Below are positions 8,936 through 58,549 of a stretch of 64,000 bases of DNA, piece after piece (the stretch's first letter is position 1; each line of letters begins with the position of its first letter). The stretch lies in the IMG/VR virus record IMGVR_UViG_3300032236_001858, one strand, 5' to 3'. Position numbers and translations under genes: made by a program. The notes beneath the pieces were generated by a model, which saw nothing but the letters and a program-made list of their open reading frames with translations, did not search any database and had not been told where the DNA came from. The DNA comes from a virus. Lineage: Duplodnaviria; Heunggongvirae; Uroviricota; Caudoviricetes.

Positions 8936-9212
8936 TAATCTAATAATTGAATATTTAGAAACAAGATATAATAAAGTTATTAATATCAAGCGTCAAAATT
9001 ATGATATGGCGGCTAATTTTAGAGATCTAGAAAGAGAGTTGTCTATTAAGATATTTAGAATTATTAAAGGTGATTATAATGATTTGAATTATAAACAATC
9101 AGAAGATGAAATTGGTAATTATTGCTTAAAAGAATTTAATTGTAGTATTTATGATTATAATTGTATAAAAGCGATTAAGCGACATATAAAATTAAAGGAT
9201 TTAGGAATATAA
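8925..9212 (+). CDS. hypothetical protein
   Basis: 95-aa ORF that overlaps the stop of the sbcC-like gene. Confidence 0.4.
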   Translation: MEINNLIIEYLETRYNKVINIKRQNYDMAANFRDLERELSIKIFRIIKGDYNDLNYKQSEDEIGNYCLKEFNCSIYDYNCIKAIKRHIKLKDLGI

Positions 9213-9245
9213 AAAAGCCTCTGATTTCTCAGAGGCTTTTCTTTT
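9211..9245. terminator. bidirectional rho-independent terminator
   Basis: Hairpin GCCTCTGATTTCTCAGAGGC flanked by an A-run and a T-run, between convergent genes. Confidence 0.65.
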
Positions 9246-9255
9246 AATATATTTT

Positions 9256-10665
9256 TTAGCAGTCGTAACAATCTACTGTTCCTCTACCACTACAATTATC
9301 ACATTCTACTGTACCATCTCCGTTACATTCTGGACAATCTGTTTCATTTCCCTCTTCATCTTCAATGTGACCTAATCCTTCACAATTTGAACAATCAACA
9401 CTTCCATCTCCACCACAATCGTCACATTCCATTCTACCCGTTCCGCCGCAAGTATCACAAGGTCTAACATAGTCACCACCTGTATCTTCTAAGAAATAAC
9501 AACCACCAGTATCTTCACTTGAAATAGTTTTTTTACGAGGATTGAAATATTTAAGTGTATCTAAGTAAGGGAAATTATCCATACTAGCATCAGTTAAATT
9601 AACCGTTAAATCTAAATTAACTCTACTTCCATCCGGTGCTACAGCTTGATTACTATCTGAACTATTATTATATTCTTTATAATACCAACCATTTTCTTTA
9701 GCATAATCTCTGAATAATTGAACATCTGAATCATTTACCGTATAAACTCTGTCTAAGAATTCTTTACCATCTCTTAACTTCCAAAGTAAAGCTCTACCAA
9801 CAATTTTTTCAGTATCATCCATTGATTTGTAAATAACTAAACCAACTTCTGGATTAGCAGTGTAAACTTCTAACCAACTATCTGGAGCACCAGCCATACA
9901 AGACGAACCTAAAGTCCCACTTCTTTGATAATAATTTGAGTTATGATACCAGTGAGCAATATCAGAACCCCTAACAACTTCAAAGTAAGAGAATTTATCA
10001 TTCATCTTATCAATAGTAGCTTTATATAAATTTACAAATTGTTCAAAATCTCTATCAGCAAATGTAGTAATACCAGCAGCTCTTAAAAGTGCTCTCATAG
10101 CTCTACCTACTTTTACTTCTTGTCTGTTTGTTGACCAAACTTTTTTAATTCTCTCATCAACAGCTCTTATCTTTTCAACATTATAAACACCTTGACCAAC
10201 ATCATTACCTGATTGGTCTTTGAATTTAACCCAAGCATAAGTTTTACCTGATTGTTCAGATGTTACTCTAGCAATAACCTCACCTAAATCTGTAGATTGT
10301 GGTTTATAAGGCTCAGAGCCTTCTTCAAATGTATAACCTAGTTGAGTAAATAATTTTGCATTTGAATCTTTGTGTTTTAACCAACCACCACCAGAACCGA
10401 TAAATCTAACTACTTCTTTAGTATCACCTAAAATCTCTTGAGCTTTTCTATCAGGAGTAAAAGTAATTGTATCGTTTTTTGTGAACTCAATATCAAGGTA
10501 ATTAGCTTGAACATTGTAGTCATTATTTTCAGCATCTAAAATAGCTTTCGCTACAGGGCTGTCAATCTTAGTCATTGCTTTTCTGAAGTTATCGGAATAA
10601 ACAACATTAGATTCTAGAATAAATTCTAGGTTTTCGTTTATAAAATCTGAATATTTTTTAATCAT
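9256..10665 (-). CDS. hypothetical protein with C-terminal DnaJ-type CxxCxGxG zinc-finger repeats
   Basis: The C-terminal 70 aa hold at least six CxxC(x)GxG units. The N-terminal 400 aa have no recognisable motif. The ORF track extends the start to a TTG at 10671. Confidence 0.55.
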   Translation of the reverse strand: MIKKYSDFINENLEFILESNVVYSDNFRKAMTKIDSPVAKAILDAENNDYNVQANYLDIEFTKNDTITFTPDRKAQEILGDTKEVVRFIGSGGGWLKHKDSNAKLFTQLGYTFEEGSEPYKPQSTDLGEVIARVTSEQSGKTYAWVKFKDQSGNDVGQGVYNVEKIRAVDERIKKVWSTNRQEVKVGRAMRALLRAAGITTFADRDFEQFVNLYKATIDKMNDKFSYFEVVRGSDIAHWYHNSNYYQRSGTLGSSCMAGAPDSWLEVYTANPEVGLVIYKSMDDTEKIVGRALLWKLRDGKEFLDRVYTVNDSDVQLFRDYAKENGWYYKEYNNSSDSNQAVAPDGSRVNLDLTVNLTDASMDNFPYLDTLKYFNPRKKTISSEDTGGCYFLEDTGGDYVRPCDTCGGTGRMECDDCGGDGSVDCSNCEGLGHIEDEEGNETDCPECNGDGTVECDNCSGRGTVDCYDC

Positions 10666-10735: not shown

Positions 10736-10924
10736 ATGCTAGAAATTAAAGTAGAAGGTGTTGGTATTGAAAAAGCCTTAAAAACACTTAAAAGAAAATT
10801 TGACAAAACTAAAACTCTTAGACAATTAAGAGATAGAAAAGAATTTGTTAAAAAATCAGTTAAAAGAAGAGCTGAAATAAACAAAGCTAAATATGTTCAA
10901 GAAAAGTTTGGTAACAACGATTAA
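10736..10924 (+). CDS. rpsU: ribosomal protein bS21 homologue
   Basis: 62 aa and basic. IKVEG..EKALKTLKRKFDKTKTLRQLRDRKEFVKKSVKRRAE aligns with bacterial S21 (IKVREN...ALRRFKR...R.REFYEKP..RKR). Confidence 0.65.
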   Translation: MLEIKVEGVGIEKALKTLKRKFDKTKTLRQLRDRKEFVKKSVKRRAEINKAKYVQEKFGNND

Positions 10925-48938: not shown

Positions 48939-49727
48939 ATGACTATTGAACCCCATGAAGAATTAAAAATTTCCCAAAATTATGATGAAAAAAATCTCTC
49001 AGGAGAGCCAACTTTTGCTGATATATATAATATAAATTTAGGTGAGCAATCACCATTAACGGCAGAAAAAGGCAATACCATTGAGGATGAATTAATGACT
49101 CCTCAAACAAAAAATGAACGGCAAATTATGGAATCGAAGGCGATTTTATTCAGTGATCAAGAAAAACTATTTAGAGAAAGAACGGGTAAAGATTTCTCTA
49201 CACTCTACACAAAGTATTACCCAAAATTAGTATATTTTACATCTAAAATATGCAATGACCCTCAAAAGGCAGAAGATATCTCAACAGATTCATTCATGGC
49301 AGCTTTTGAGAAGATTGAGAAATATGAAAAGGAAAAATCTCAATTCTCTACATGGCTATTCACAATAGCAAAAAACTTAGCACTTCAAGACCTTAAAAGC
49401 AACAAAAAAACAATGTCTTTAGATATTGAGTTTGATGATGAAGGTACAACAATGAAAGACTTTATTCAAGAAGAAGATGGTGATAATCTTATTCATGAAA
49501 TTCATGCCAAAAAAGCTGAAATTATGAAGAAGCACATTCAAAACTTGAAAAATCCTTATCGTGATGTAATTGAAATGCGTGAGTTAAAAAGAATGTCTTA
49601 TAAAGATATTTCTGACCAACTTAATCTTAACCTATCAACGGTTAAGTCACAAATTCGTAATGGAAGAGCTATCTTAGTTCGTGAAACTAAGAAAGAGTTT
49701 GATGCGATTGATGAAATGTTAATGTAA
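48939..49727 (+). CDS. ECF-type sigma-70 family RNA polymerase sigma factor
   Basis: Region 2 (YYPKLVYFTSKI...AEDISTDSFMAAFEKI...FSTWLFTIAKNLALQ) and a region-4 helix-turn-helix (MSYKDISDQLNLNLSTVKSQIRNGR). Confidence 0.65.
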   Translation: MTIEPHEELKISQNYDEKNLSGEPTFADIYNINLGEQSPLTAEKGNTIEDELMTPQTKNERQIMESKAILFSDQEKLFRERTGKDFSTLYTKYYPKLVYFTSKICNDPQKAEDISTDSFMAAFEKIEKYEKEKSQFSTWLFTIAKNLALQDLKSNKKTMSLDIEFDDEGTTMKDFIQEEDGDNLIHEIHAKKAEIMKKHIQNLKNPYRDVIEMRELKRMSYKDISDQLNLNLSTVKSQIRNGRAILVRETKKEFDAIDEMLM

Positions 49728-51077: not shown

Positions 51078-51401
51078 ATGGTAGCATATATAACAGAATT
51101 AAATGCAGATAACTATGACAACTTTGTTAAAGAAGGATTAGTACTTGTTGACATTTGGGCGGCTTGGTGCGGTCCTTGTAAAATGATTTCACCTATTGTA
51201 GATGAAATCTCATCAGACTATGTTGATAGACTTAAAGTTGGTAAATGTGACGCTGATGCAAATAGAGATAAAGTTATGGAACTTGGTGTTAGAAATATTC
51301 CTACACTTTTCCTTTACAAAGATGGCCAAATTGTTGAAACTACAAAAGGTGCTATAACAAAAAAGGCAATAACTGAACTCATTGATAAACACTTATCATA
51401 A
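51078..51401 (+). CDS. trxA: thioredoxin
   Basis: WAAWCGPCK active site. 107 aa. Confidence 0.85.
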   Translation: MVAYITELNADNYDNFVKEGLVLVDIWAAWCGPCKMISPIVDEISSDYVDRLKVGKCDADANRDKVMELGVRNIPTLFLYKDGQIVETTKGAITKKAITELIDKHLS

Positions 51402-51976
51402 TGAAAGATATTGGTTACCTTTTTGACCTATTGAAAAAATCTAACATATCTCTATTGGGATATAAATTTAATCAAGAAAGGCTTAAAGATGAGATTATTT
51501 CAAAACTACCTCACTTGGTGGTTCATGAAATAAACTCGTCTTTTTCTTTTAAATCTTTTTTAAGAGATTTGAAACTTCAATCAATTTTAGAAACTAGTGA
51601 GACTATAAAAAATCCAGAGTATCTTGTTTTAGATTTGAATGATATTAGATTTAAATCAGATGATTTAGGTGATAGACAAAGACAAATATCTAATATTCTA
51701 AATAGGCTTAGAGAAGATATGTACTCTGGTTCTGATGTGCCTTATAAACTTTTGATACTCACCTCACTATACAGTAGTGGAAAGAACGTCGATGATGTTA
51801 ATATTACAAATTTTTCTGGCGGTAGCAAACCAATCTTTATGAGTGACGTAGTATTTGTAATGCAAGAAGAATCAATGAAAGTAATAAAGAATAGATTTGA
51901 TGAAAACAACATTGATATTTCTTACAATAAATTAAAAGATTATAACTATATTTGCAACTATGAAAATAACAACTAA
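51401..51976 (+). CDS. hypothetical protein
   Basis: 191-aa ORF between trx and smpB. Confidence 0.45.
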   Translation: MKDIGYLFDLLKKSNISLLGYKFNQERLKDEIISKLPHLVVHEINSSFSFKSFLRDLKLQSILETSETIKNPEYLVLDLNDIRFKSDDLGDRQRQISNILNRLREDMYSGSDVPYKLLILTSLYSSGKNVDDVNITNFSGGSKPIFMSDVVFVMQEESMKVIKNRFDENNIDISYNKLKDYNYICNYENNN

Positions 51977-52406
51977 CAAAAAAGCTTATTACGAATACTT
52001 TGTCATTGAAGACTTTGATGCTGGTATTATGCTTTTAGGAAGTGAAGTAAAGTCAATCAGAGAAGGTAACTTGAGTTTAATTGATTGTTTTGCTTACATT
52101 TCAGATGGTGAACTTTGGTTAAAAAATATGAAAGTGGCTCGATATAAACAAGTCCATGTTGCTGAAAAACATGAAGAAAATCGAGACAAAAAATTACTTC
52201 TCAATAGAAAAGAAATAAATAAAATTGAAAAGTTACTTCAAGATAATGGAACAACTATGGTTCCTTTAGAAGTATTCACAGCACATAATCGAATTAAAGT
52301 TAAGATTGGTGTTGTTAAAGGTAAGAAGCTATATGATAAAAGATCCACTATTAAAGAGAGAGATATAAAAAGAGAGATAAACAGAGAAAGTAATTTTAAT
52401 ATATAA
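51960..52406 (+). CDS. smpB: SsrA-binding protein SmpB
   Basis: KKAYYEYFVIEDFDAGIMLLGSEVKSIREG ... RDKKLLLNRKEI ... KIGVVKGKKLYDKRSTIKERD aligns along the full length with bacterial SmpB. Confidence 0.8.
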   Translation: MKITTNKKAYYEYFVIEDFDAGIMLLGSEVKSIREGNLSLIDCFAYISDGELWLKNMKVARYKQVHVAEKHEENRDKKLLLNRKEINKIEKLLQDNGTTMVPLEVFTAHNRIKVKIGVVKGKKLYDKRSTIKERDIKREINRESNFNI

Positions 52407-52425
52407 GTAAATATATTTATGTATT

Positions 52426-53298
52426 ATGTTAAACAATAAAGAAAAATCAATAAAATATTTATTGGAGAATTACTCAGTTAAATCAAAGGTTGAAATACAA
52501 AATGATTTAAATTTATCTTGGTCTTATATACAAAAATTAGCATGTCTTAATGGTATTAAAAGAACATCAAATGAGTCACCAAATGATTGGAGATATAAAA
52601 AGTTAATAAACTATAATGATAATATCTCTATGTATTGGATAGGATTTATGATAGCAGACGGTCATATTTCTAAAAAGAAGAATATACAGATTAATATATC
52701 TATAAAAGATAAACTACATCTGTTAAAAATAACAGAACATATTGGTAATATTTCTATAAATCTAACTGATAGTCAAATAAGAGCTACTATAAACGATAGA
52801 AGAACTACGAGTGTTTTATCAAATGATTTTAAATGGCTTTCTAATAAGACAAAAAATCCAATAGAAATACCAAAAATTATTTCTGAGGATTCTTTATTTA
52901 GTTTAATTATTGGATTTATAGATGGTGATGGTACCATAAATAAAAAAGGACATATTTTTGTTAAGTGTGATGGTTCTTGGAAGAATAATTTGGAATATTT
53001 TTATTATATATTAACAGGTGAAAAAAAAGTATTTAATCTAACAAGTGATGGTTTATCCATAATCTATATTCTTAAATTTAAGAATTTAATTCAAATTAAA
53101 GAAAGAGCTAAATTATTAAATTTACCAATAATGAGTAGAAAGTGGGATAGAATAGAAAATAAAGTTTTCAAGAGTGATAAATATGAGATTGTTAAAACTC
53201 TACTTAAAGAAGGTAATTCTATTAAAGAGACAATTGATAAAACAAACTTTGGACAAACTCTTGTTTATAAAGTTTATAAAGAAATTAATAAAATTTAA
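52426..53298 (+). mobile_element. freestanding LAGLIDADG homing endonuclease
   Basis: Two LAGLIDADG motifs, WIGFMIADGHI and LIIGFIDGDGTI. Confidence 0.65.
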
Positions 53299-53299
53299 A

Positions 53300-53662
53300 A
53301 TGGCTCGTAAACCTAAAGATATAAATCCTCTTTTGGACAAACTCAGTAAATCACTTACTGAAGAAGAAATTCTTAAACATCTTGTTAAATTGGTAAAATC
53401 ATTTGATCCTTACCAGTATAAAGAAGTCATATATAATAACCCTTATTACAAGTCTTTAATTCCAGATATTCAAGTTGATATAATCAAAGATTTAGAAAAT
53501 GTTAAAGATTCTTTAGTAAAAGAAATTGAAAAGATAGAGTCAGATCTTAAAAAGATTGGAAATAAAGACTCTGCGGAACAATTAAAAAATCTTAAAAGAG
53601 ATTGTTTGGCTTTAATCTATGAAATTGATGAACGTAAAAGAGAGATAGATAGTTTATCTTAA
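53300..53662 (+). CDS. hypothetical coiled-coil protein
   Basis: The ORF-track start at 53174 overlaps the endonuclease gene. The ATG at 53300 (MARKPKD) follows its stop. Confidence 0.4.
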   Translation: MARKPKDINPLLDKLSKSLTEEEILKHLVKLVKSFDPYQYKEVIYNNPYYKSLIPDIQVDIIKDLENVKDSLVKEIEKIESDLKKIGNKDSAEQLKNLKRDCLALIYEIDERKREIDSLS

Positions 53663-55300
53663 TAAAGAGTCAACATATCTTTCAATGTGTTTAGCTTTCT
53701 TAATGTCTTCTATAATTTCTTCTTCCCTTCTTTTATCAATTCTATCAATATAATACTCAGTATCACCAGAATACTGAAATTCATTTAAAATATTTCTGGT
53801 ATAAAAAAACGTAAGTCCTCTTTCATTAGATAAACTTTTAATAGATTTTAATTTAGCTATAACCATTGATAAATCTTCAATAGTTTGAATATTCTGAGAA
53901 AGTAAATAATTTTTGATCTTTTTACCAATTTCCATAAATATTTTAAATATTTCCTTAATTGCCTCATTATTAGAATTATTAACTATGTTAAGAGACTTAA
54001 TATATAGCTTTATATAGTCCTCATTATAAGAATTTAGTGATTTGAAACTACTAACAATATTTGATAAGTAATAATGTCTATCTGATTCATCAGCTTTCAT
54101 TATTTCATAAATATTATTAGACATACTATCTAAAGTGTCAAATCCTGGTCTACTTTTATAAATTGAAATAAAAGCAAAATCACTACAAACTGATTTTATA
54201 ACTAATTTTTGAAGATTTTTAAGTTCAGTAATATCTTGTTTAATACCCATTTTACCAACTAATGCAGACATGTATCTTTCAATGTTAGCCTTTTTTATTT
54301 CAGAATCACTTACTAATCTAGTAGCACCTTCTCTTGATTCAGTTCTACTTTTTCTTACATCACTAACTTTAGTTCCAACAGATTTAAGTACATCACCAAT
54401 CATTAAAACAATAGCAAAGTCTGATCTATCAACTGATTTATAATCATATATTGACCAATCTGTTTCACCCCACTCTCTTAAATTATAATTTTTATTTACT
54501 GGAAGATTGAAATCAAATGGATTTGATTCTTTTTTCTTTTCTTCTTCTTTTATTTTTCCTACTACATGTATAGGTTCATCTGATGGTGTATAAATATGTA
54601 GTTTACCATGGTCACTAGCTGGTGAATCCACATCACCCATTGTCCAAGAATCTATAAATCTTGAATCTTGATTTCTCCATTCTCTCCAATTTACTCCATC
54701 TACCGCACGGTCAGGTGTTCCACCATTAGCAACATTTTGAATGGCGTTAAGATGATCATTGTCATCTCTCCATATTTTAGCTAACGACAATCTATTTAAA
54801 TCTTCATAATCTTCAGACCAAACACCAATAACTAATTGGCCATGTTGTAATTCATTATAATCTTTAACCGGTGTTAATTTACCTGTTTTTATATCTAATG
54901 TGTTTTTTATGTAATCTAATTCTTCATTACTAAATGGTTCATTCTGATTTGTTTTTGCATAACCTTTAAGATACTTATTAAAATCCATTGTAAGATCACC
55001 TGTACCTGTGAATCCTAAATATCCCTCATCCATTGAGAACCAGAATTTCAAACAGTATAGACCTCTTTCATCTTCCTCAGTTGATTTTATTTTAAGTGCT
55101 TGATTTTTATTAAGATACTTAACATTATCATCTTTGATTTTATCAATAGGAATATCTAATTTAGCTATCATAGTTTTTAATTTATCACGGAATCTTTCTT
55201 TGGAATTATTATCTACTTTACTTTTCAAAAATTTCATCATTTTTGACAAAGCATTAGATTCAAAAGCCTCAAATAACATTAGATATTTCATGTCTGACAT
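53654..55300 (-). CDS. hypothetical protein (548 aa)
   Basis: Long ORF with no recognisable motif. Confidence 0.55.
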   Translation of the reverse strand: MSDMKYLMLFEAFESNALSKMMKFLKSKVDNNSKERFRDKLKTMIAKLDIPIDKIKDDNVKYLNKNQALKIKSTEEDERGLYCLKFWFSMDEGYLGFTGTGDLTMDFNKYLKGYAKTNQNEPFSNEELDYIKNTLDIKTGKLTPVKDYNELQHGQLVIGVWSEDYEDLNRLSLAKIWRDDNDHLNAIQNVANGGTPDRAVDGVNWREWRNQDSRFIDSWTMGDVDSPASDHGKLHIYTPSDEPIHVVGKIKEEEKKKESNPFDFNLPVNKNYNLREWGETDWSIYDYKSVDRSDFAIVLMIGDVLKSVGTKVSDVRKSRTESREGATRLVSDSEIKKANIERYMSALVGKMGIKQDITELKNLQKLVIKSVCSDFAFISIYKSRPGFDTLDSMSNNIYEIMKADESDRHYYLSNIVSSFKSLNSYNEDYIKLYIKSLNIVNNSNNEAIKEIFKIFMEIGKKIKNYLLSQNIQTIEDLSMVIAKLKSIKSLSNERGLTFFYTRNILNEFQYSGDTEYYIDRIDKRREEEIIEDIKKAKHIERYVDSLLR

Positions 55301-55320
55301 ACTCTATATATTAAAAAATA

Positions 55321-55352
55321 TTTGGTAAAATAAAACTTTATTCTTAATTTTG
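55321..55352 (+). promoter_or_regulatory. Bacteroidetes-type promoter P1 (TTTG-N20-TAATTTTG)
   Basis: TTTGGTAAAATAAAACTTTATTCTTAATTTTG is about 80% identical over 40 nt to the promoter at 57882. Confidence 0.5.
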
Positions 55353-55787
55353 TATAACAAACAAAGAGTCGTTAAGACAAAAGTTAAGAAATTAACAAGT
55401 TGAAAGACTTCACATTATAAACAATTTAGAAGATAAGTGTGAGTCTTAACGAAATTATGGTAGTAAGTAGCTGTTAAATATGTTAACACCCTTGTTAAAG
55501 CCAGTGAACTACCTTGTATTATATTATATGATAATAGTAAGGGTGTAGATATCAAAGTCGTGTTGGTGATAGATGTCTCAAATATAACTAAATGAATAAA
55601 CCCAACTCAAAGAAGATTAAACCGAGCAGAATGGTAACACTGCTCAACCGAGGCGAAAGCATATTAAAAGGTAATCCTAAGTGATGAGGTCACTAAAAGT
55701 TAAGGTAAGGTTCTCGGATTTCGACCATACTTAGCAGGCGTTCCAAACATCTTCTTTTTTTATTAAAAATTATTAAAAACAAAGTAT
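55353..55787 (+). ncRNA. candidate structured non-coding RNA or long structured leader
   Basis: A 435-nt ORF-free stretch downstream of promoter P1. GC content is locally raised, with several hairpins (GAGCAG..CTGCTC, GTGATGAGGTCAC) and a tmRNA-5'-like TTCTCGGATTTCGAC element. Confidence 0.3.
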
Positions 55788-56195
55788 ATGACACTGAAAG
55801 AAAAAATTAACGCAGACTTCATTACAGCTTTTAAATCTAAAAACGCTGTTGCTAAAAGTATTTTATCCGTAGTAAAGGGTGAAATTCAAAATATTGAAAA
55901 GAACGTAGGCTCTGATAATCTTTCAGATGTTGAAGTAACTAAGATTTTAACAAAGACTGTTAAATCTCTTAAAGAAACTATTGCATTAAGCAATGACGAA
56001 AAATCTAAGCTTGAATTAGCTATTGTTGAAGTTTATCTTCCAAAGCAAATGTCTAAAGAAGAAGTTACTGCTAAAGTAACAGAACTTGTAAATTCTGGTA
56101 TCACTCAAATTGGTGCCATCATGAAAGAATTTGCAACTCTTCCAGCTGACAAGAAAATGGTCTCTGAATCAATCAAAGAAGTTACTAAACAGTAA
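55788..56195 (+). CDS. GatB/YqeY-domain protein
   Basis: VYLPKQMSKEEVTAKVTELVNSGITQIGAIMKEF aligns with YqeY (YLPEQLSEEEL...GA.S..DMGKVMG). Confidence 0.6.
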   Translation: MTLKEKINADFITAFKSKNAVAKSILSVVKGEIQNIEKNVGSDNLSDVEVTKILTKTVKSLKETIALSNDEKSKLELAIVEVYLPKQMSKEEVTAKVTELVNSGITQIGAIMKEFATLPADKKMVSESIKEVTKQ

Positions 56196-57185: not shown

Positions 57186-57398
57186 ATGGCTTATTTAAGA
57201 GATGGTGGAATTATCACTGAAAGAGATTATGTTGGGAAAACATTAGAAGAAGCAACACAATATGCTGAAAGTGGTGGGTTTGAAGTAAGAGTTGTTGAGG
57301 TTGATGGTCAATCTAAAATGCTTACTATGGATACTAAATCAAATAGAATTAATTTCAGAGTTCGTGGTGGTTATGTAACTGCGGCTTTTGGAGGATAA
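57186..57398 (+). CDS. hypothetical protein
   Basis: 70-aa ORF. Confidence 0.35.
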   Translation: MAYLRDGGIITERDYVGKTLEEATQYAESGGFEVRVVEVDGQSKMLTMDTKSNRINFRVRGGYVTAAFGG

Positions 57399-58231: not shown

Positions 58232-58304
58232 GGAACCTAAGCTAATCAGGTGAAAGCACTGGACTGAAAATCCAGGGAGCCCGGATCGTTACCGGGAGGT
58301 TCCA
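58232..58304 (+). tRNA. tRNA-Phe(GAA) variant with a non-canonical T-loop (ATCGTTA), encoded CCA
   Basis: Acceptor GGAACCT/AGGTTCC, anticodon stem CTGGA/TCCAG with loop CTGAAAA, T arm CCCGG-ATCGTTA-CCGGG, then A-CCA. Confidence 0.45.
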
Positions 58305-58315
58305 CCAAAATAAAT

Positions 58316-58389
58316 GGTGTATGTAGCTCAATCGGTAGAGCGTCGGTTTGTGGAGCCGAAGGTAGCGGGATCGTAACCCGTCATTCACC
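58316..58389 (+). tRNA. tRNA-His(GTG) with G-1:C73, non-canonical T-loop (ATCGTAA)
   Basis: G-1 precedes acceptor GTGTATG/CATTCAC (one mismatch). D arm GCTC-AATCGGTA-GAGC. Anticodon stem TCGGT/GCCGA with loop TTGTGGA. Confidence 0.5.
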
Positions 58390-58394
58390 CAAAA

Positions 58395-58466
58395 GGAGAC
58401 TTAGCTGAGACGGTTTAGCGTTTGGTTGAAGCCCAAAAGAGGTCGGTTCGATTCCGGCAGTCTCCA
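58395..58466 (+). tRNA. tRNA-Phe(GAA), canonical
   Basis: Acceptor GGAGACT/AGTCTCC, D arm GCTG..TAGC, anticodon stem TTTGG/CCAAA with loop TTGAAGC, T arm GTCGG-TTCGATT-CCGGC. Confidence 0.6.
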
Positions 58467-58472
58467 CAACAT

Positions 58473-58543
58473 ACGTCATACAGACAAGGTGTCGGTCAGG
58501 TCTCCAAAACCTCGACGGTGGGGTTCGATTCCTCAATGGCGTG
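58473..58543 (+). tRNA. tRNA-like, Trp anticodon CCA, atypical short D arm (71 nt)
   Basis: Acceptor ACGTCAT/ATGGCGT (one G-U pair). Anticodon stem CAGGT/ACCTC (one mismatch) with loop CTCCAAA. T arm TGGGG-TTCGATT-CCTCA. Confidence 0.35.
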
Positions 58544-58549
58544 CTAAAT

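What the first reader, a model, noticed from the sequence alone, without database searches (positions are those of the whole stretch)
55353..55787. 435-nt ORF-free structured region downstream of a host-type promoter: candidate ncRNA
Intergenic spaces in this genome are typically 10-60 nt, but here a 470-nt gap separates divergent genes. It begins with a strong Bacteroidetes promoter (P1) and holds a GC-enriched segment (55440-55745) with several stable hairpins. It also carries TTCTCGGATTTCGAC, which resembles the conserved 5' UCUGGAUUCGAC element of tmRNA. I could not assemble a complete tmRNA (no tRNA-like 3' end, no tag frame). It could be a novel ncRNA, a degenerate or two-piece tmRNA, or a regulatory leader for the YqeY-domain gene.
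Basis: seen in the sequence. Interest (0 to 1): 0.6.

Follow-up and report, generated by a model that had tools for sequence, protein, structure and literature searches.

The report
New ornate RNA in huge phages
The gap holds a gene for a roughly 405-base, heavily knotted non-coding RNA of a family absent from Rfam 15, conserved in giant water-borne phages of Bacteroidota, and sitting among the phage's own translation genes (SmpB, YqeY, tRNAs).

Summary
Window 55301-55787 is a 487-nt gap with no conserved ORF, and a Bacteroidota-type promoter (TTTG-N20-TAATTTTG, 55321-55352) precedes it. It encodes a structured RNA of about 405 nt (about 55357-55761, + strand).

I found 66 homologous loci (62 distinct) in freshwater and marine metagenomes and in huge-phage contigs of up to 635 kb. 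None turned up in the 185,579 cellular genomes scanned.

Covariation supports 13 helices. These include the pseudoknots PK-A and PK-B firmly, and PK-C on one compensated pair. Of 91 counted pairs, 50 show changes on both sides, and 93-99% of cells are paired against 30-47% in slid controls.

No Rfam 15 family matches, and ARAGORN finds no tmRNA. There is no acceptor stem, no CCA end and no tag frame, so the tmRNA reading fails. The "tmRNA-like" 15-mer is the loop of hairpin P11.

A canonical smpB lies 3 kb upstream in conserved synteny, yqeY follows the RNA, and a tRNA island lies 2.4 kb downstream. A complete relative, LR745206, has SmpB, no detectable tmRNA, and a separate GOLLD RNA.

The RNA survives where yqeY is displaced, is separated from it by a tRNA, or has its own promoter. 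I therefore read it as a stand-alone RNA gene, not a leader. Its function is unknown and is probably translation-related.

The parts
55321..55352 (+). Bacteroidota-type promoter: -33 TTTG (55321-24), 20-nt spacer, -7 TAATTTTG (55345-52). The inferred start is about 55357.
   Evidence: Read from the sequence. TAnnTTTG is conserved at this position in 39 of 41 distinct homologues. The start site is inferred from the published Bacteroides promoter geometry, not measured.
55357..55761 (+). The whole RNA, about 405 nt. The ends are inferred from the promoter and from the last paired base plus the U-tail.
   Evidence: 66 homologous loci. Conserved G.U pairs fix the strand.
55369..55452 (+). P1 domain: a 10-bp closing helix (55369-78 with 55443-52) around variable hairpins P1a (55383-87/55392-96) and P1b (55397-400/55407-10). 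It is a peripheral domain, rebuilt or missing in some lineages.
   Evidence: Alignment A7: 9 of 10 P1 pairs have changes on both sides, and 93.8% of cells pair against 30-47% in slid controls.
55459..55513 (+). P2: P2a (55459-63/55509-13) and P2b (55470-73/55502-05), separated by an invariant internal loop UAAGUA/GAA (55464-69/55506-08). That loop has the sequence signature of a loop-E/sarcin-ricin module.
   Evidence: P2a has 2 pairs and P2b 3 pairs with changes on both sides. The loop-E assignment is by sequence pattern only (my own knowledge).
55486..55546 (+). Pseudoknot PK-A: ACACCCUU in the P2b loop (55486-93) pairs with AAGGGUGU (55539-46). It spans the variable AU-rich hairpin P4 (about 55517-37).
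   Evidence: 6 of 8 pairs have changes on both sides, and 96-100% of cells pair.
55547..55608 (+). P5 hairpin (55547-53/55572-78). Its loop GUGUUGG (55560-66) pairs with CCAACUC (55602-08) to form pseudoknot PK-B, across a variable A-rich linker (55579-601).
   Evidence: P5 has 6 of 7 pairs and PK-B 4 of 7 pairs with changes on both sides. L070 restores a perfect 7-bp PK-B.
55609..55757 (+). 3' domain closed by the long-range helix P6 (55609-17 with 55749-57). It is a multi-helix junction carrying P7, P8, P9 and P10/P11.
   Evidence: Model R1 and alignment A5: 8 of 9 P6 pairs have changes on both sides. RNAalifold predicts the same helices independently.
55624..55645 (+). P7 hairpin (55624-29/55640-45) with the near-invariant loop AAUGGUAACA. 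AAUGGUA equals the tRNA D-loop consensus. GG.AAC (55633-38) may pair with GUUCC (55740-44) as PK-D; this is unproven because both sides are invariant.
   Evidence: one covarying pair in P7, and all five PK-D pairs invariant. The tRNA consensus is visible in the alignment.
55650..55662 (+). P8, a small hairpin of variable length (GC-GAAA-GC in the window). A G.U / A.C wobble covariation links 55650 and 55662.
   Evidence: This pair has the highest corrected mutual information in the whole alignment: GU in 31 sequences, AC in 26. A longer P8 is seen in L070 and L001.
55673..55720 (+). PK-C: AAUCC (55673-77) pairs with GGAUU (55716-20) in the P11 loop. It crosses P9 (55680-85/55689-94, invariant) and the 5' strand of P10.
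   Evidence: the pair at alignment columns 91/160 is U.G in 43, U-A in 18 and G-C in 1 sequence (L070). The alternative is two local mini-hairpins. Support is moderate.
55699..55735 (+). P10 (55699-704/55730-35) enclosing P11 (55709-12/55723-26). Some relatives carry an extra hairpin between P10 and P11.
   Evidence: 4 of 6 P10 pairs have changes on both sides. Inserted hairpins are seen.
55788..56195 (+). yqeY (135 aa), the gene that follows the RNA in nearly all loci. It probably shares the RNA's transcript in the window.
   Evidence: Pfam YqeY 1.4e-15. PHROG 1460. Synteny. No terminator-like site between the RNA and yqeY.
51960..52406 (+). smpB (148 aa, full length with C-terminal tail), in conserved synteny 1.85-2.47 kb upstream of the RNA's conserved GGTAACAC motif (P7 loop) in relatives. 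The distance is 3.2 kb here because a LAGLIDADG gene is inserted.
   Evidence: Pfam SmpB 4.2e-52. Synteny in 24 loci plus L161-L164.

Best explanation
Window 55357-55761 (+) is a stand-alone gene for a large, highly structured non-coding RNA of a family absent from Rfam 15. It is carried by a clade of huge, AT-rich aquatic phages that use Bacteroidota-type promoters.

Shown:
- It has its own conserved promoter.
- It folds into two parts. The 5' part has a variable P1 domain, a P2 stem with a loop-E-like internal loop, and two hairpin-type pseudoknots. The 3' part is a multi-helix junction closed by the long-range helix P6. That junction carries nearly invariant loops and at least one further probable pseudoknot.
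- It is single-copy per genome.
- It sits in a translation-gene island in the order smpB, an ORFan on the opposite strand, the RNA, yqeY, and then a tRNA island.

Inferred:
- The RNA acts in trans as a folded scaffold or mimic during infection.
- Its invariant loops include a tRNA D-loop-like AAUGGUA, a T-loop-like GUUCCAAA next to the closing helix, and the P11 loop. These would bind a conserved partner from the translation apparatus.
- The phage YqeY is the prime candidate partner. YqeY is homologous to the tRNA-binding tail of GatB, and preliminary work names it as a partner of OLE RNA.
- The nearest analogues are the ornate phage RNAs GOLLD and ROOL, which also lie beside tRNA islands and whose function is still unknown.
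For: Conservation:
- 73.5% identity over 474 nt with the 634,780-bp phage LR745206.
- 7 IMG/VR loci and 59 metagenome loci.
- 66 matches at 118-190 bits to model R1.
- Blocks of up to 38 invariant nt lie beside indels that are not multiples of three.
- Median identity to the window is 81% (nt) for the 3' domain, against 69% (aa) for YqeY and about 37% (aa) for the upstream ORFan.

Structure:
- 3' domain: 98.9% of cells paired, 14 of 41 pairs with changes on both sides.
- 5' core: 92.6% paired, 21 of 31 pairs.
- P1 domain: 93.8% paired, 15 of 19 pairs.
- Controls with the 3' partner slid by 1-3 columns pair only 30-47%.
- RNAalifold recovers the 3' helices independently.
- Conserved G.U pairs fix the + strand.

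Autonomy:
- The promoter is conserved in 39 of 41.
- The RNA is kept where yqeY is absent or displaced (L053, L060, L040).
- A tRNA-Met lies between the RNA and yqeY in L026 and L064.
- A separate TTTG-N20-TAnnTTTG promoter for yqeY exists in the divergent subgroup.

Context:
- YqeY, SmpB, and tRNA islands 1-3 kb away in 22 of 30 loci scanned.
- The window's own island is at 58232-61388.

Not a known family:
- Rfam at gathering threshold and at E<=10 on the window, and at E<=5 on 12 homologous loci.

Phage-only:
- 0 hits in 185,579 cellular genomes.
- Nothing upstream of 65 cellular yqeY genes.

Literature:
- YqeY as a candidate OLE RNA partner, and the rpsU-yqeY operon (PMC12054373, PMC13374519).
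- GOLLD and ROOL 'often near tRNA islands' (PMC12286853).
Against: - There is no expression data, so the transcript ends are inferred.
- In most loci, including the window, only 34-53 AU-rich nt with no terminator separate the RNA from yqeY. The RNA is therefore physically the 5' part of the yqeY transcript, at least at first.
- No partner has been shown. The tRNA-like features are short sequence resemblances in invariant positions and cannot be tested by covariation.
- PK-D is unproven, and PK-C rests on one fully compensated sequence.
- The homologues were collected with exact sequence patterns, which inflates the apparent invariance of the pattern blocks.
Confidence: 0.6

Rival explanations
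1. It is a cis-acting 5' leader of yqeY: a riboswitch-like, tRNA-sensing or protein-binding autoregulatory element. It would control read-through or translation of YqeY, with P6 and the U-rich tail, or an alternative hairpin, serving as the expression platform.
For: - It has the same orientation as yqeY and lies directly upstream of it in nearly all loci.
- There is no terminator or second promoter in the 30-nt spacer of the window.
- In L001, L014, L046, L052 and L055 a downstream hairpin re-uses the 3' strand of P6 (UCUUCAUAUU..AAUAUGAGAAGA), so it is mutually exclusive with P6. This looks like a switch.
- In bacteria the rpsU-yqeY leader is autoregulated (PMC13374519).
Against: - The RNA is retained where yqeY is missing (L053, L060) or 1.4 kb away (L040).
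- A tRNA-Met is inserted between the two in two lineages.
- The divergent subgroup has a separate promoter, and a hairpin, between the RNA and yqeY.
- The implied switch logic is opposite in different groups.
- Other phages and Bacteroidota carry yqeY without any such leader.
- 405 nt with several pseudoknots, conserved at least as well as the 135-aa protein it would regulate, is out of scale for a leader.
Confidence: 0.2
2. It is a very divergent or non-canonical tmRNA, or a non-chargeable mimic of the tmRNA tRNA-like domain that partners with the phage SmpB.
For: - A canonical smpB lies in conserved synteny 1.85-3.2 kb upstream.
- The complete relative LR745206 has smpB but no tmRNA by ARAGORN over the whole genome, nor by Rfam over positions 1-594,500.
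- The size (about 400 nt) and the richness in pseudoknots resemble tmRNA.
- The P11 loop UCU(C)GGAUU(U)CGAC matches the tmRNA 5' consensus ucuGGaUUCGAC with two single-nt insertions (consensus shown).
- That loop probably pairs with a T-arm-like AAUCC.
Against: - ARAGORN finds no tmRNA, and no Rfam tmRNA model scores even at E<=10.
- The 5' and 3' ends do not pair.
- No helix is followed by NCCA, and no helix has G3.U70. Position 3:70 of P6 is A-U in 55 of 60 sequences.
- There is no canonical T-arm.
- There is no conserved reading frame. The only long single-stranded stretch is full of stops and indels.
- The motif sits in a hairpin near the 3' end, not after an acceptor strand.
- The phage SmpB looks entirely canonical, so it can use the host tmRNA.
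- 12 other phage smpB loci have neither a tmRNA nor this RNA nearby.
- The divergent subgroup lacks smpB within at least 4 kb.
Confidence: 0.08
3. It is a remote member or fragment of a known ornate phage RNA family (GOLLD or ROOL).
For: It shares their lifestyle: phage-encoded, next to tRNA islands, with many pseudoknots and no associated ORF (PMC12286853).
Against: - The Rfam GOLLD and ROOL models do not match at E<=10.
- LR745206 carries a bona fide GOLLD (287 bits) 85 kb away in addition to this RNA.
- The two show no similarity by blastn or nhmmer.
Confidence: 0.03
4. It is a DNA-level element (origin, packaging or recombination site) or an unrecognised protein-coding gene, not an RNA.
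For: It is a large conserved intergenic block between divergent genes.
Against: - Strand-specific G.U pairs and compensatory changes in 50 of 91 counted pairs point to RNA.
- Indels are not multiples of three, and stops occur in all frames.
- A conserved promoter is aimed into the region.
- The region holds no ORF of 50 aa or more in any frame, and the tandem- and inverted-repeat finders were not run.
Confidence: 0.02

Closest known systems
GOLLD and ROOL RNAs (Rfam RF02032; ROOL family)
   Same: They are large, ornate, pseudoknotted RNAs encoded by phages and prophages, typically beside tRNA islands, with no known protein partner or function (PMC12286853). The same huge-phage genome, LR745206, carries both a GOLLD and this RNA.
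   Different: There is no sequence or covariance-model similarity. This RNA is shorter (about 405 nt, against about 580 nt for ROOL from my own knowledge and over 800 nt for many GOLLD members per PMC12286853). It is tied to yqeY and smpB. Whether it forms RNA-only multimers is untested.
OLE RNA ribonucleoprotein
   Same: It is a large ornate ncRNA linked to translation-related moonlighting proteins. bS21 binds OLE, and YqeY is reported as a preliminary binding partner (PMC12054373). Here the RNA is genetically linked to a yqeY gene, and the phage also encodes bS21.
   Different: OLE is a roughly 600-nt RNA of Bacillota, with the partners OapA, OapB and OapC. There is no Rfam match here, none of those partner genes was looked for, and the host phylum is different.
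tmRNA / SmpB
   Same: smpB is in the neighbourhood. The size is similar, there are several H-type pseudoknots, and a 12-nt resemblance to the tmRNA D-loop-analogue motif exists.
   Different: There is no acceptor stem, CCA, G3.U70, T-arm or tag reading frame. The ends do not pair, and the tmRNA detectors are negative.
Structured 5' leaders (T-box, ribosomal-protein and rpsU-yqeY leaders)
   Same: It lies upstream of, and is co-oriented with, a translation-related gene. It has an S-turn-like loop and pseudoknots. In one subgroup an alternative hairpin overlaps P6.
   Different: There is no T-box or other Rfam leader match. It is far larger, it is retained without yqeY, and in several lineages it is separated from yqeY by a tRNA or a promoter.

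Membership tests
tmRNA (one-piece) | tRNA-like domain: the 5' and 3' ends pair into an acceptor stem with G3.U70, followed by a 3' NCCA | tested here: not met
   The ends do not pair: P1 is local and P6 is internal. No covariation-supported helix is followed by CCA. Position 3:70 of P6 is A-U in 55 of 60 sequences. I searched by hand for partners of the ...GACCA and ...GUUCCA ends and found none.
tmRNA (one-piece) | T-arm plus D-loop analogue recognised by tmRNA detectors | tested here: not met
   ARAGORN finds no tmRNA in the window or in the 46 related loci scanned. Rfam tmRNA-clan models give no match at E<=10 on 55200-55900, nor at E<=5 on 12 homologous loci within the RNA.
tmRNA (one-piece) | Tag reading frame (resume codon to stop) in a single-stranded region after PK1 | tested here: not met
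   The only + strand ORF is 30 aa (55592-55684). It spans the variable linker and conserved helices and is broken by indels in relatives. The linkers contain stops in all frames.
tmRNA (one-piece) | Co-occurrence with SmpB | tested here: met
   smpB lies at 51960-52406 and is syntenic in 24 loci plus L161-L164. It is not present in the divergent subgroup.
Two-piece (permuted) tmRNA | T-arm, acceptor 3' strand and CCA lie upstream; an intervening segment follows; then come the acceptor 5' strand, the D-analogue, PK1 and the tag frame | tested here: not met
   The D-analogue-like motif lies about 45 nt from the 3' end, with no room for a coding piece. The nearest upstream hairpin (P9) has a 3-nt loop, no CCA and no G.U at position 3:70. 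To my knowledge ARAGORN also looks for permuted tmRNA genes; it found nothing.
GOLLD RNA | Match to the conserved 3' domain (Rfam RF02032) | tested here: not met
   No match at E<=10. The same model scores 287 bits on a different locus of LR745206. nhmmer and blastn between the two RNAs give only chance hits.
ROOL RNA | Match to the Rfam ROOL model | tested here: not met
   No match at gathering threshold or at E<=10 or E<=5.
GOLLD/ROOL-like (functional analogy) | Phage-encoded, beside a tRNA island, with extensive pseudoknotted structure and no ORF | tested here: met
GOLLD/ROOL-like (functional analogy) | RNA-only homo-oligomeric cage | not testable with these tools
   This needs cryo-EM or native gels of the in vitro transcript.
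T-box / riboswitch leader | Conserved aptamer plus a mutually exclusive terminator and antiterminator directly controlling the downstream gene | tested here: inconclusive
   There is no Rfam riboswitch or T-box match and no terminator in the window. An alternative hairpin overlaps P6 in only one subgroup. The RNA occurs without yqeY.
RNase P RNA | P4 pseudoknot with the conserved regions CR-I and CR-V, and a match to the RNase P models | tested here: not met
   No Rfam RNase P match at E<=10. The GACAGAA resemblance to J2/4 is present in only a subset of sequences. The helix topology is different.

The most novel reading that the evidence does not exclude
The RNA is the RNA subunit of a phage-specific translation-takeover particle. 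Its 3' junction would be a non-chargeable tRNA-like or tmRNA-TLD-like mimic, built from a D-loop-type AAUGGUA loop, a T-loop-type GUUCCAAA and the tmRNA-like P11 loop. The neighbouring phage proteins YqeY and/or SmpB would bind it. In phages that carry smpB but no tmRNA, it would take over or redirect ribosome rescue or tRNA handling. Alternatively, like GOLLD and ROOL, it could assemble into an RNA-only cage around tRNAs.
Probability: 0.12. Interest if true: 0.92.

Novelty: categorically new. Interest (0 to 1): 0.8.

Why it matters
Large, intricately folded bacterial and phage RNAs of unknown function are rare. GOLLD, ROOL, OLE and raiA are the main examples, and each has led to unexpected biology, most recently RNA-only nanocages.

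This RNA is a further such family. It has 62 distinct sequences, a secondary structure well supported by covariation, and an unusually informative neighbourhood: SmpB, YqeY, bS21 elsewhere in the window, and tRNA islands.

The neighbourhood gives concrete, testable partners. That bears on two open questions:
- What does YqeY do?
- Why do huge phages carry SmpB without a tmRNA?

The RNA is also a ready target for cryo-EM, and a marker for a widespread clade of freshwater and marine megaphages.

Tried and rejected
- **Known RNA families.** Rfam found only tRNAs in the window at gathering threshold, nothing relevant at E<=10 on 55200-55900, and nothing consistent at E<=5 on 12 homologous loci.
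- **tmRNA by ARAGORN.** Negative on the window, on 46 related loci and on the whole LR745206 genome.
- **Hidden coding gene or recoded stops.** Rejected because of the indel pattern and stops in all frames.
- **Single-sequence folding as evidence.** Not significant.
- **Mimicry of E. coli RNAs.** blastn against 5,426 E. coli genomes gave only chance hits of 25-34 nt. The resemblances I noted by eye to 16S h44/h45, RNase P J2/4 and the T-box sequence were not conserved across the family or were not detected by models, so I dropped them.
- **Cellular homologues.** A pattern scan of 185,579 genomes gave 0 hits. 65 cellular yqeY loci gave no R1 match.
- **RNA upstream of other phage yqeY or smpB genes.** Absent outside the clade.
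- **Pairing of ACCUUGUA (55511-18) with CAAGG/CGAGG, or with AAGGGU.** Not supported by covariation.
- **A partner for the variable dinucleotide 55738-39.** None found by mutual information.
- **The upstream 548-aa ORFan as a clue.** No Pfam, PHROG, NCBIfam or PDB-sequence hit, and no significant Foldseek PDB match for a model with pLDDT 80.
- **Weak second R1 hits.** Window 9185-9290 and L155 14421-14556 are low-complexity noise.
- **Source contig.** Looking it up through the identical protein failed.
Full report
**1. The observation**

The stretch between the divergent 548-aa gene (53654-55300, - strand) and yqeY (55788-56195, + strand) is 487 nt. It contains only three short ORFs of 30-46 aa.

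A promoter of the Bacteroides/Bacteroidota type lies directly upstream: TTTG at 55321-24, 20 nt, then TAATTTTG at 55345-52. G+C rises from about 0.2 in the flanks to 0.30-0.41 inside. The 15-mer TTCTCGGATTTCGAC is at 55711-25.

Thermodynamic folding of the single sequence is not better than shuffles, with z = -1.49 on the + strand and -0.90 on the - strand.

**2. Relatives**

- blastn against 50,697 GenBank phage records finds one hit. It is LR745206.1, an uncultured 634,780-bp phage, at 73.5% identity over 474 nt.
- That genome belongs to the data set of Al-Shayeb et al. In that study the genomes above 634 kb were assigned to Bacteroidetes hosts and to the 'Mahaphage' clade (PMC7162821).
- Three independent exact-pattern scans of IMG/VR each return the same 7 contigs, of 75-483 kb.
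- One scan of JGI and ENA metagenomes returns 59 loci. By their record names these are mostly aquatic samples; two records are titled 'marine metagenome' and one is from the AACY marine survey.
- A covariance model of the 3' domain (R1) recovers 66 loci at 118-190 bits, 62 of them distinct.
- This includes a more divergent lineage (L070 and L162-L164, 118 bits) that none of the patterns would have found.
- The RNA is single-copy in the window and in the complete LR745206 genome.
- No match exists in one genome from each of 185,579 bacterial and archaeal species.
- No match exists upstream of 65 cellular yqeY genes. These are mostly Bacteroidota, at 30-35% identity to the phage protein.

**3. 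It is a structured RNA**

The alignments show the classic mosaic. Invariant blocks of up to 38 nt are interrupted by variable stretches with indels of 1, 2, 4, 10 and 17 nt, which excludes coding. I derived a structure by eye and with a pair-scan, then counted it on three alignments.

| Region | Alignment | Cells paired | Pairs with changes on both sides | Slid controls |
|---|---|---|---|---|
| 3' domain | A5, model-aligned, 62 distinct rows | 98.9% | 14 of 41 | 30-44% |
| 5' core | A6, MAFFT, 53 distinct rows | 92.6% | 21 of 31 | 38-46% |
| P1 domain | A7, 38 distinct rows | 93.8% | 15 of 19 | 30-47% |

Helix by helix, the pairs with changes on both sides are:
- 3' domain: 8 of 9 in P6, 4 of 6 in P10, and one each in P7 and PK-C.
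- 5' core: P2a, P2b, PK-A, P5 and PK-B all covary.
- P1 domain: 9 of 10 in P1.

In every case 0 to 3 of 500 column shuffles reached the observed values for percentage paired, pairs and cells changed on both sides, and covariation score. The 'further pair types' measure did not differ from the shuffles for A5 and A6. The tool warns that the shuffle control ignores phylogeny, so the slid-partner control is the stricter one.

RNAalifold, run without my structure, finds P6, P7, P9, P10 and P11 again. Invariant G.U pairs occur in P2b, P9 and P11, and a G.U/A.C wobble covariation links 55650 and 55662. These fix the RNA to the + strand, in line with the promoter.

Caveats: A5 is fitted to the model's structure. 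The family was gathered with patterns from the P7 loop and the J8/9 block, so the invariance of those two blocks is partly by selection. L070, which was found through its neighbouring protein gene, shows that they do vary slightly.

**4. Anatomy (window coordinates)**

- **P1:** 55369-78/55443-52, closing a variable insert. The insert is reduced to a plain hairpin in L019, L025, L038 and L043, and is replaced in a divergent subgroup of 11 loci.
- **P2a and P2b:** 55459-63/55509-13 and 55470-73/55502-05. They are separated by the invariant loop UAAGUA/GAA, a loop-E/sarcin-ricin signature by sequence only.
- **PK-A:** 55486-93/55539-46.
- **P4:** a variable AU-rich hairpin.
- **P5 and PK-B:** P5 is 55547-53/55572-78. 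Its loop forms PK-B (55560-66/55602-08) across an A-rich linker of variable length.
- **P6:** 55609-17/55749-57. It closes a junction with P7, P8, P9 and P10/P11.
- **P7:** loop AAUGGUAACA.
- **P8:** variable length.
- **P9:** invariant.
- **P10 and P11:** 55699-704/55730-35 and 55709-12/55723-26.
- **PK-C:** AAUCC (55673-77) can pair with GGRUU in the P11 loop. The middle pair is U.G, U-A or, in L070, G-C.
- **PK-D:** GG.AAC in the P7 loop with GUUCC (55740-44). It is possible, but both sides never vary.

**5. What it is not**

- Rfam 15 (4,227 families) gives only tRNAs in the window at gathering threshold. It gives nothing relevant at E<=10 on the region, and nothing consistent at E<=5 on 12 homologous loci.
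- This covers tmRNA (all clan members), RNase P, SRP, 6S, T-box, riboswitches, GOLLD, ROOL, OLE, HEARO and raiA.
- LR745206 carries a genuine GOLLD RNA (287 bits) at 420,875-421,280, between tRNA genes and 85 kb from this RNA. The two share no similarity.

**6. The neighbourhood, and the tmRNA question**

A full-length, canonical smpB lies at 51960-52406 (Pfam 4.2e-52). A bS21 gene lies at about 10754-10900.

The order is smpB (+), the 548-aa ORFan (-), the RNA (+), then yqeY (+).
- It is conserved in 24 main-group loci and in the L070 lineage.
- The window has an extra LAGLIDADG gene inserted after smpB.
- A tRNA island follows 1-3 kb downstream in 22 of 30 loci scanned, and at 58232-61388 in the window.
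- LR745206 has 59 tRNAs and smpB. It has no tmRNA by ARAGORN over the whole genome, nor by Rfam over positions 1-594,500.

This makes a divergent tmRNA worth a serious test, and it fails on every defining feature.
- The ends do not pair.
- No supported helix is followed by NCCA or has G3.U70.
- There is no T-arm.
- There is no conserved frame.
- The tmRNA-like motif is a hairpin loop about 45 nt from the 3' end. A permuted gene would need a coding piece after it, and there is no room for one.

The phage SmpB has all the usual conserved segments and the C-terminal tail. By inference it can work with the host tmRNA. Twelve other phage smpB loci have neither a tmRNA nor this RNA within 4 kb.

What remains is a set of short tRNA-like or TLD-like resemblances in invariant loops: AAUGGUA, GUUCCAAA and UCU.GG.UU.CGAC. 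I report these as a lead, not a finding.

**7. Leader or gene?**

In the window and most relatives only 34-53 AU-rich nt, with no terminator-like site, separate P6 from the yqeY start codon. The two are therefore co-transcribed. Several observations argue against a leader:

| Observation | Loci |
|---|---|
| RNA present with no adjacent yqeY | L053, L060 |
| A 435-aa gene inserted between the RNA and yqeY | L040 |
| A tRNA-Met sits about 6 nt after the U-tail and before yqeY. RNase P processing (inferred) would release the RNA. | L026, L064 |
| A hairpin and a full TTTG-N20-TAnnTTTG promoter between the RNA and yqeY | divergent subgroup |
| yqeY without the RNA | other phages and Bacteroidota |

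One subgroup has a downstream hairpin that competes with P6. This is the only switch-like feature, and its logic does not carry over to the other groups. I therefore favour an autonomous RNA gene that shares a transcription unit with yqeY.

**8. Mechanism**

Shown: a conserved promoter, a conserved compact fold with pseudoknots and near-invariant loops, restriction to phages, and a position in a translation-gene island.

Inferred: the RNA acts in trans through its invariant loops on a conserved partner.

YqeY is the obvious candidate partner, for three reasons.
- It is homologous to the tRNA-binding tail of GatB and to the appended domain of Deinococcus GlnRS (PMC1865053).
- Its gene usually travels with rpsU in bacteria (PMC13374519).
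- It is reported, preliminarily, to bind OLE RNA (PMC12054373).

SmpB, tRNAs and the ribosome are alternatives. I put about 0.6 on 'stand-alone trans-acting RNA', 0.2 on 'cis leader', under 0.1 on a tmRNA-type role, and a few percent on the rest.

**9. Novelty and value**

No Rfam family matches, and three of my literature searches were positioned to find a description of this RNA and found none. It adds a well-supported member to the very short list of large ornate phage and bacterial RNAs. Unlike GOLLD and ROOL, it comes with specific candidate protein partners.

**10. Limits**

There is no expression data and no 3D information. PK-C and PK-D are weakly supported. Homologue collection was pattern-biased. 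The Rfam scan of LR745206 lacks the last 40 kb. Host assignment rests on the promoter type, on the nearest cellular YqeY relatives and on the cited paper.

Noticed in passing
window 51960-52406 (+): A full-length SmpB gene (Pfam 4.2e-52) sits in a phage with no detectable tmRNA in the window. The complete relative LR745206 also has smpB but no tmRNA by ARAGORN or Rfam.
   Followed up: yes
window 52426-53298 (+): A LAGLIDADG-type homing-endonuclease-like ORF (Pfam LAGLIDADG_3, 2.1e-06) lies between smpB and the 548-aa ORFan. It is absent from relatives whose smpB-to-RNA distance is about 1 kb shorter, so it is probably a recent free-standing insertion. A related partial ORF appears in L060.
   Followed up: partly
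window 58232-61388 (+): A tRNA island of 12 genes. Three tRNA-Lys genes are 84-88 nt long, with an insertion of about 12-14 nt in the variable region. Similarly long tRNA-Lys genes recur in L015, L021, L028, L036, L048, L054 and L055. Class-II-like Lys tRNAs are unusual.
   Followed up: no
window ~10754-10900 (+): A ribosomal protein bS21 homologue (Pfam 5.8e-12). Together with yqeY, this means the phage carries both genes of the bacterial rpsU-yqeY pair, but 45 kb apart.
   Followed up: partly
window 48939-49727 (+): An ECF-like sigma factor (Sigma70 r2 and r4) lies a few kb upstream of a host-type promoter region. A thioredoxin gene is at 51078-51401.
   Followed up: no
window 53654-55300 (-): A 548-aa ORFan is transcribed divergently from the RNA. 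It has 193 metagenomic homologues at E<=1e-5 among the candidates scored and no Pfam, PHROG, NCBIfam or PDB match. The AlphaFold model (pLDDT 80: beta-rich N-terminal half, helical C-terminal half) has no significant Foldseek hit in the PDB. A few JGI records name homologues 'RimP' or 'Jag', which I could not confirm.
   Followed up: partly
LR745206 genome 420,875-421,280 (L156:24875-25280): A bona fide GOLLD RNA (Rfam 287 bits) lies between tRNA-Met and tRNA-Pro in the same huge phage that carries the new RNA.
   Followed up: partly
window 57186-57398 (+); L070:1926-2135; L053 (reverse-complement orientation) 1187-1399: A conserved 70-aa protein with a weak PASTA-like hit stays next to yqeY or the RNA across lineages, including the one that lost yqeY. 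To my eye it resembles an I78-family peptidase inhibitor.
   Followed up: no
L148:17639-17673 (LR745206): A DUF805b RNA motif scores just above its Rfam gathering score in the huge-phage genome.
   Followed up: no
L070:2716-2805: A T-arm-containing, tRNA-like fragment scores weakly on the tmRNA model (15.6 bits, ends only). ARAGORN does not call it. It is probably a degenerate tRNA.
   Followed up: partly
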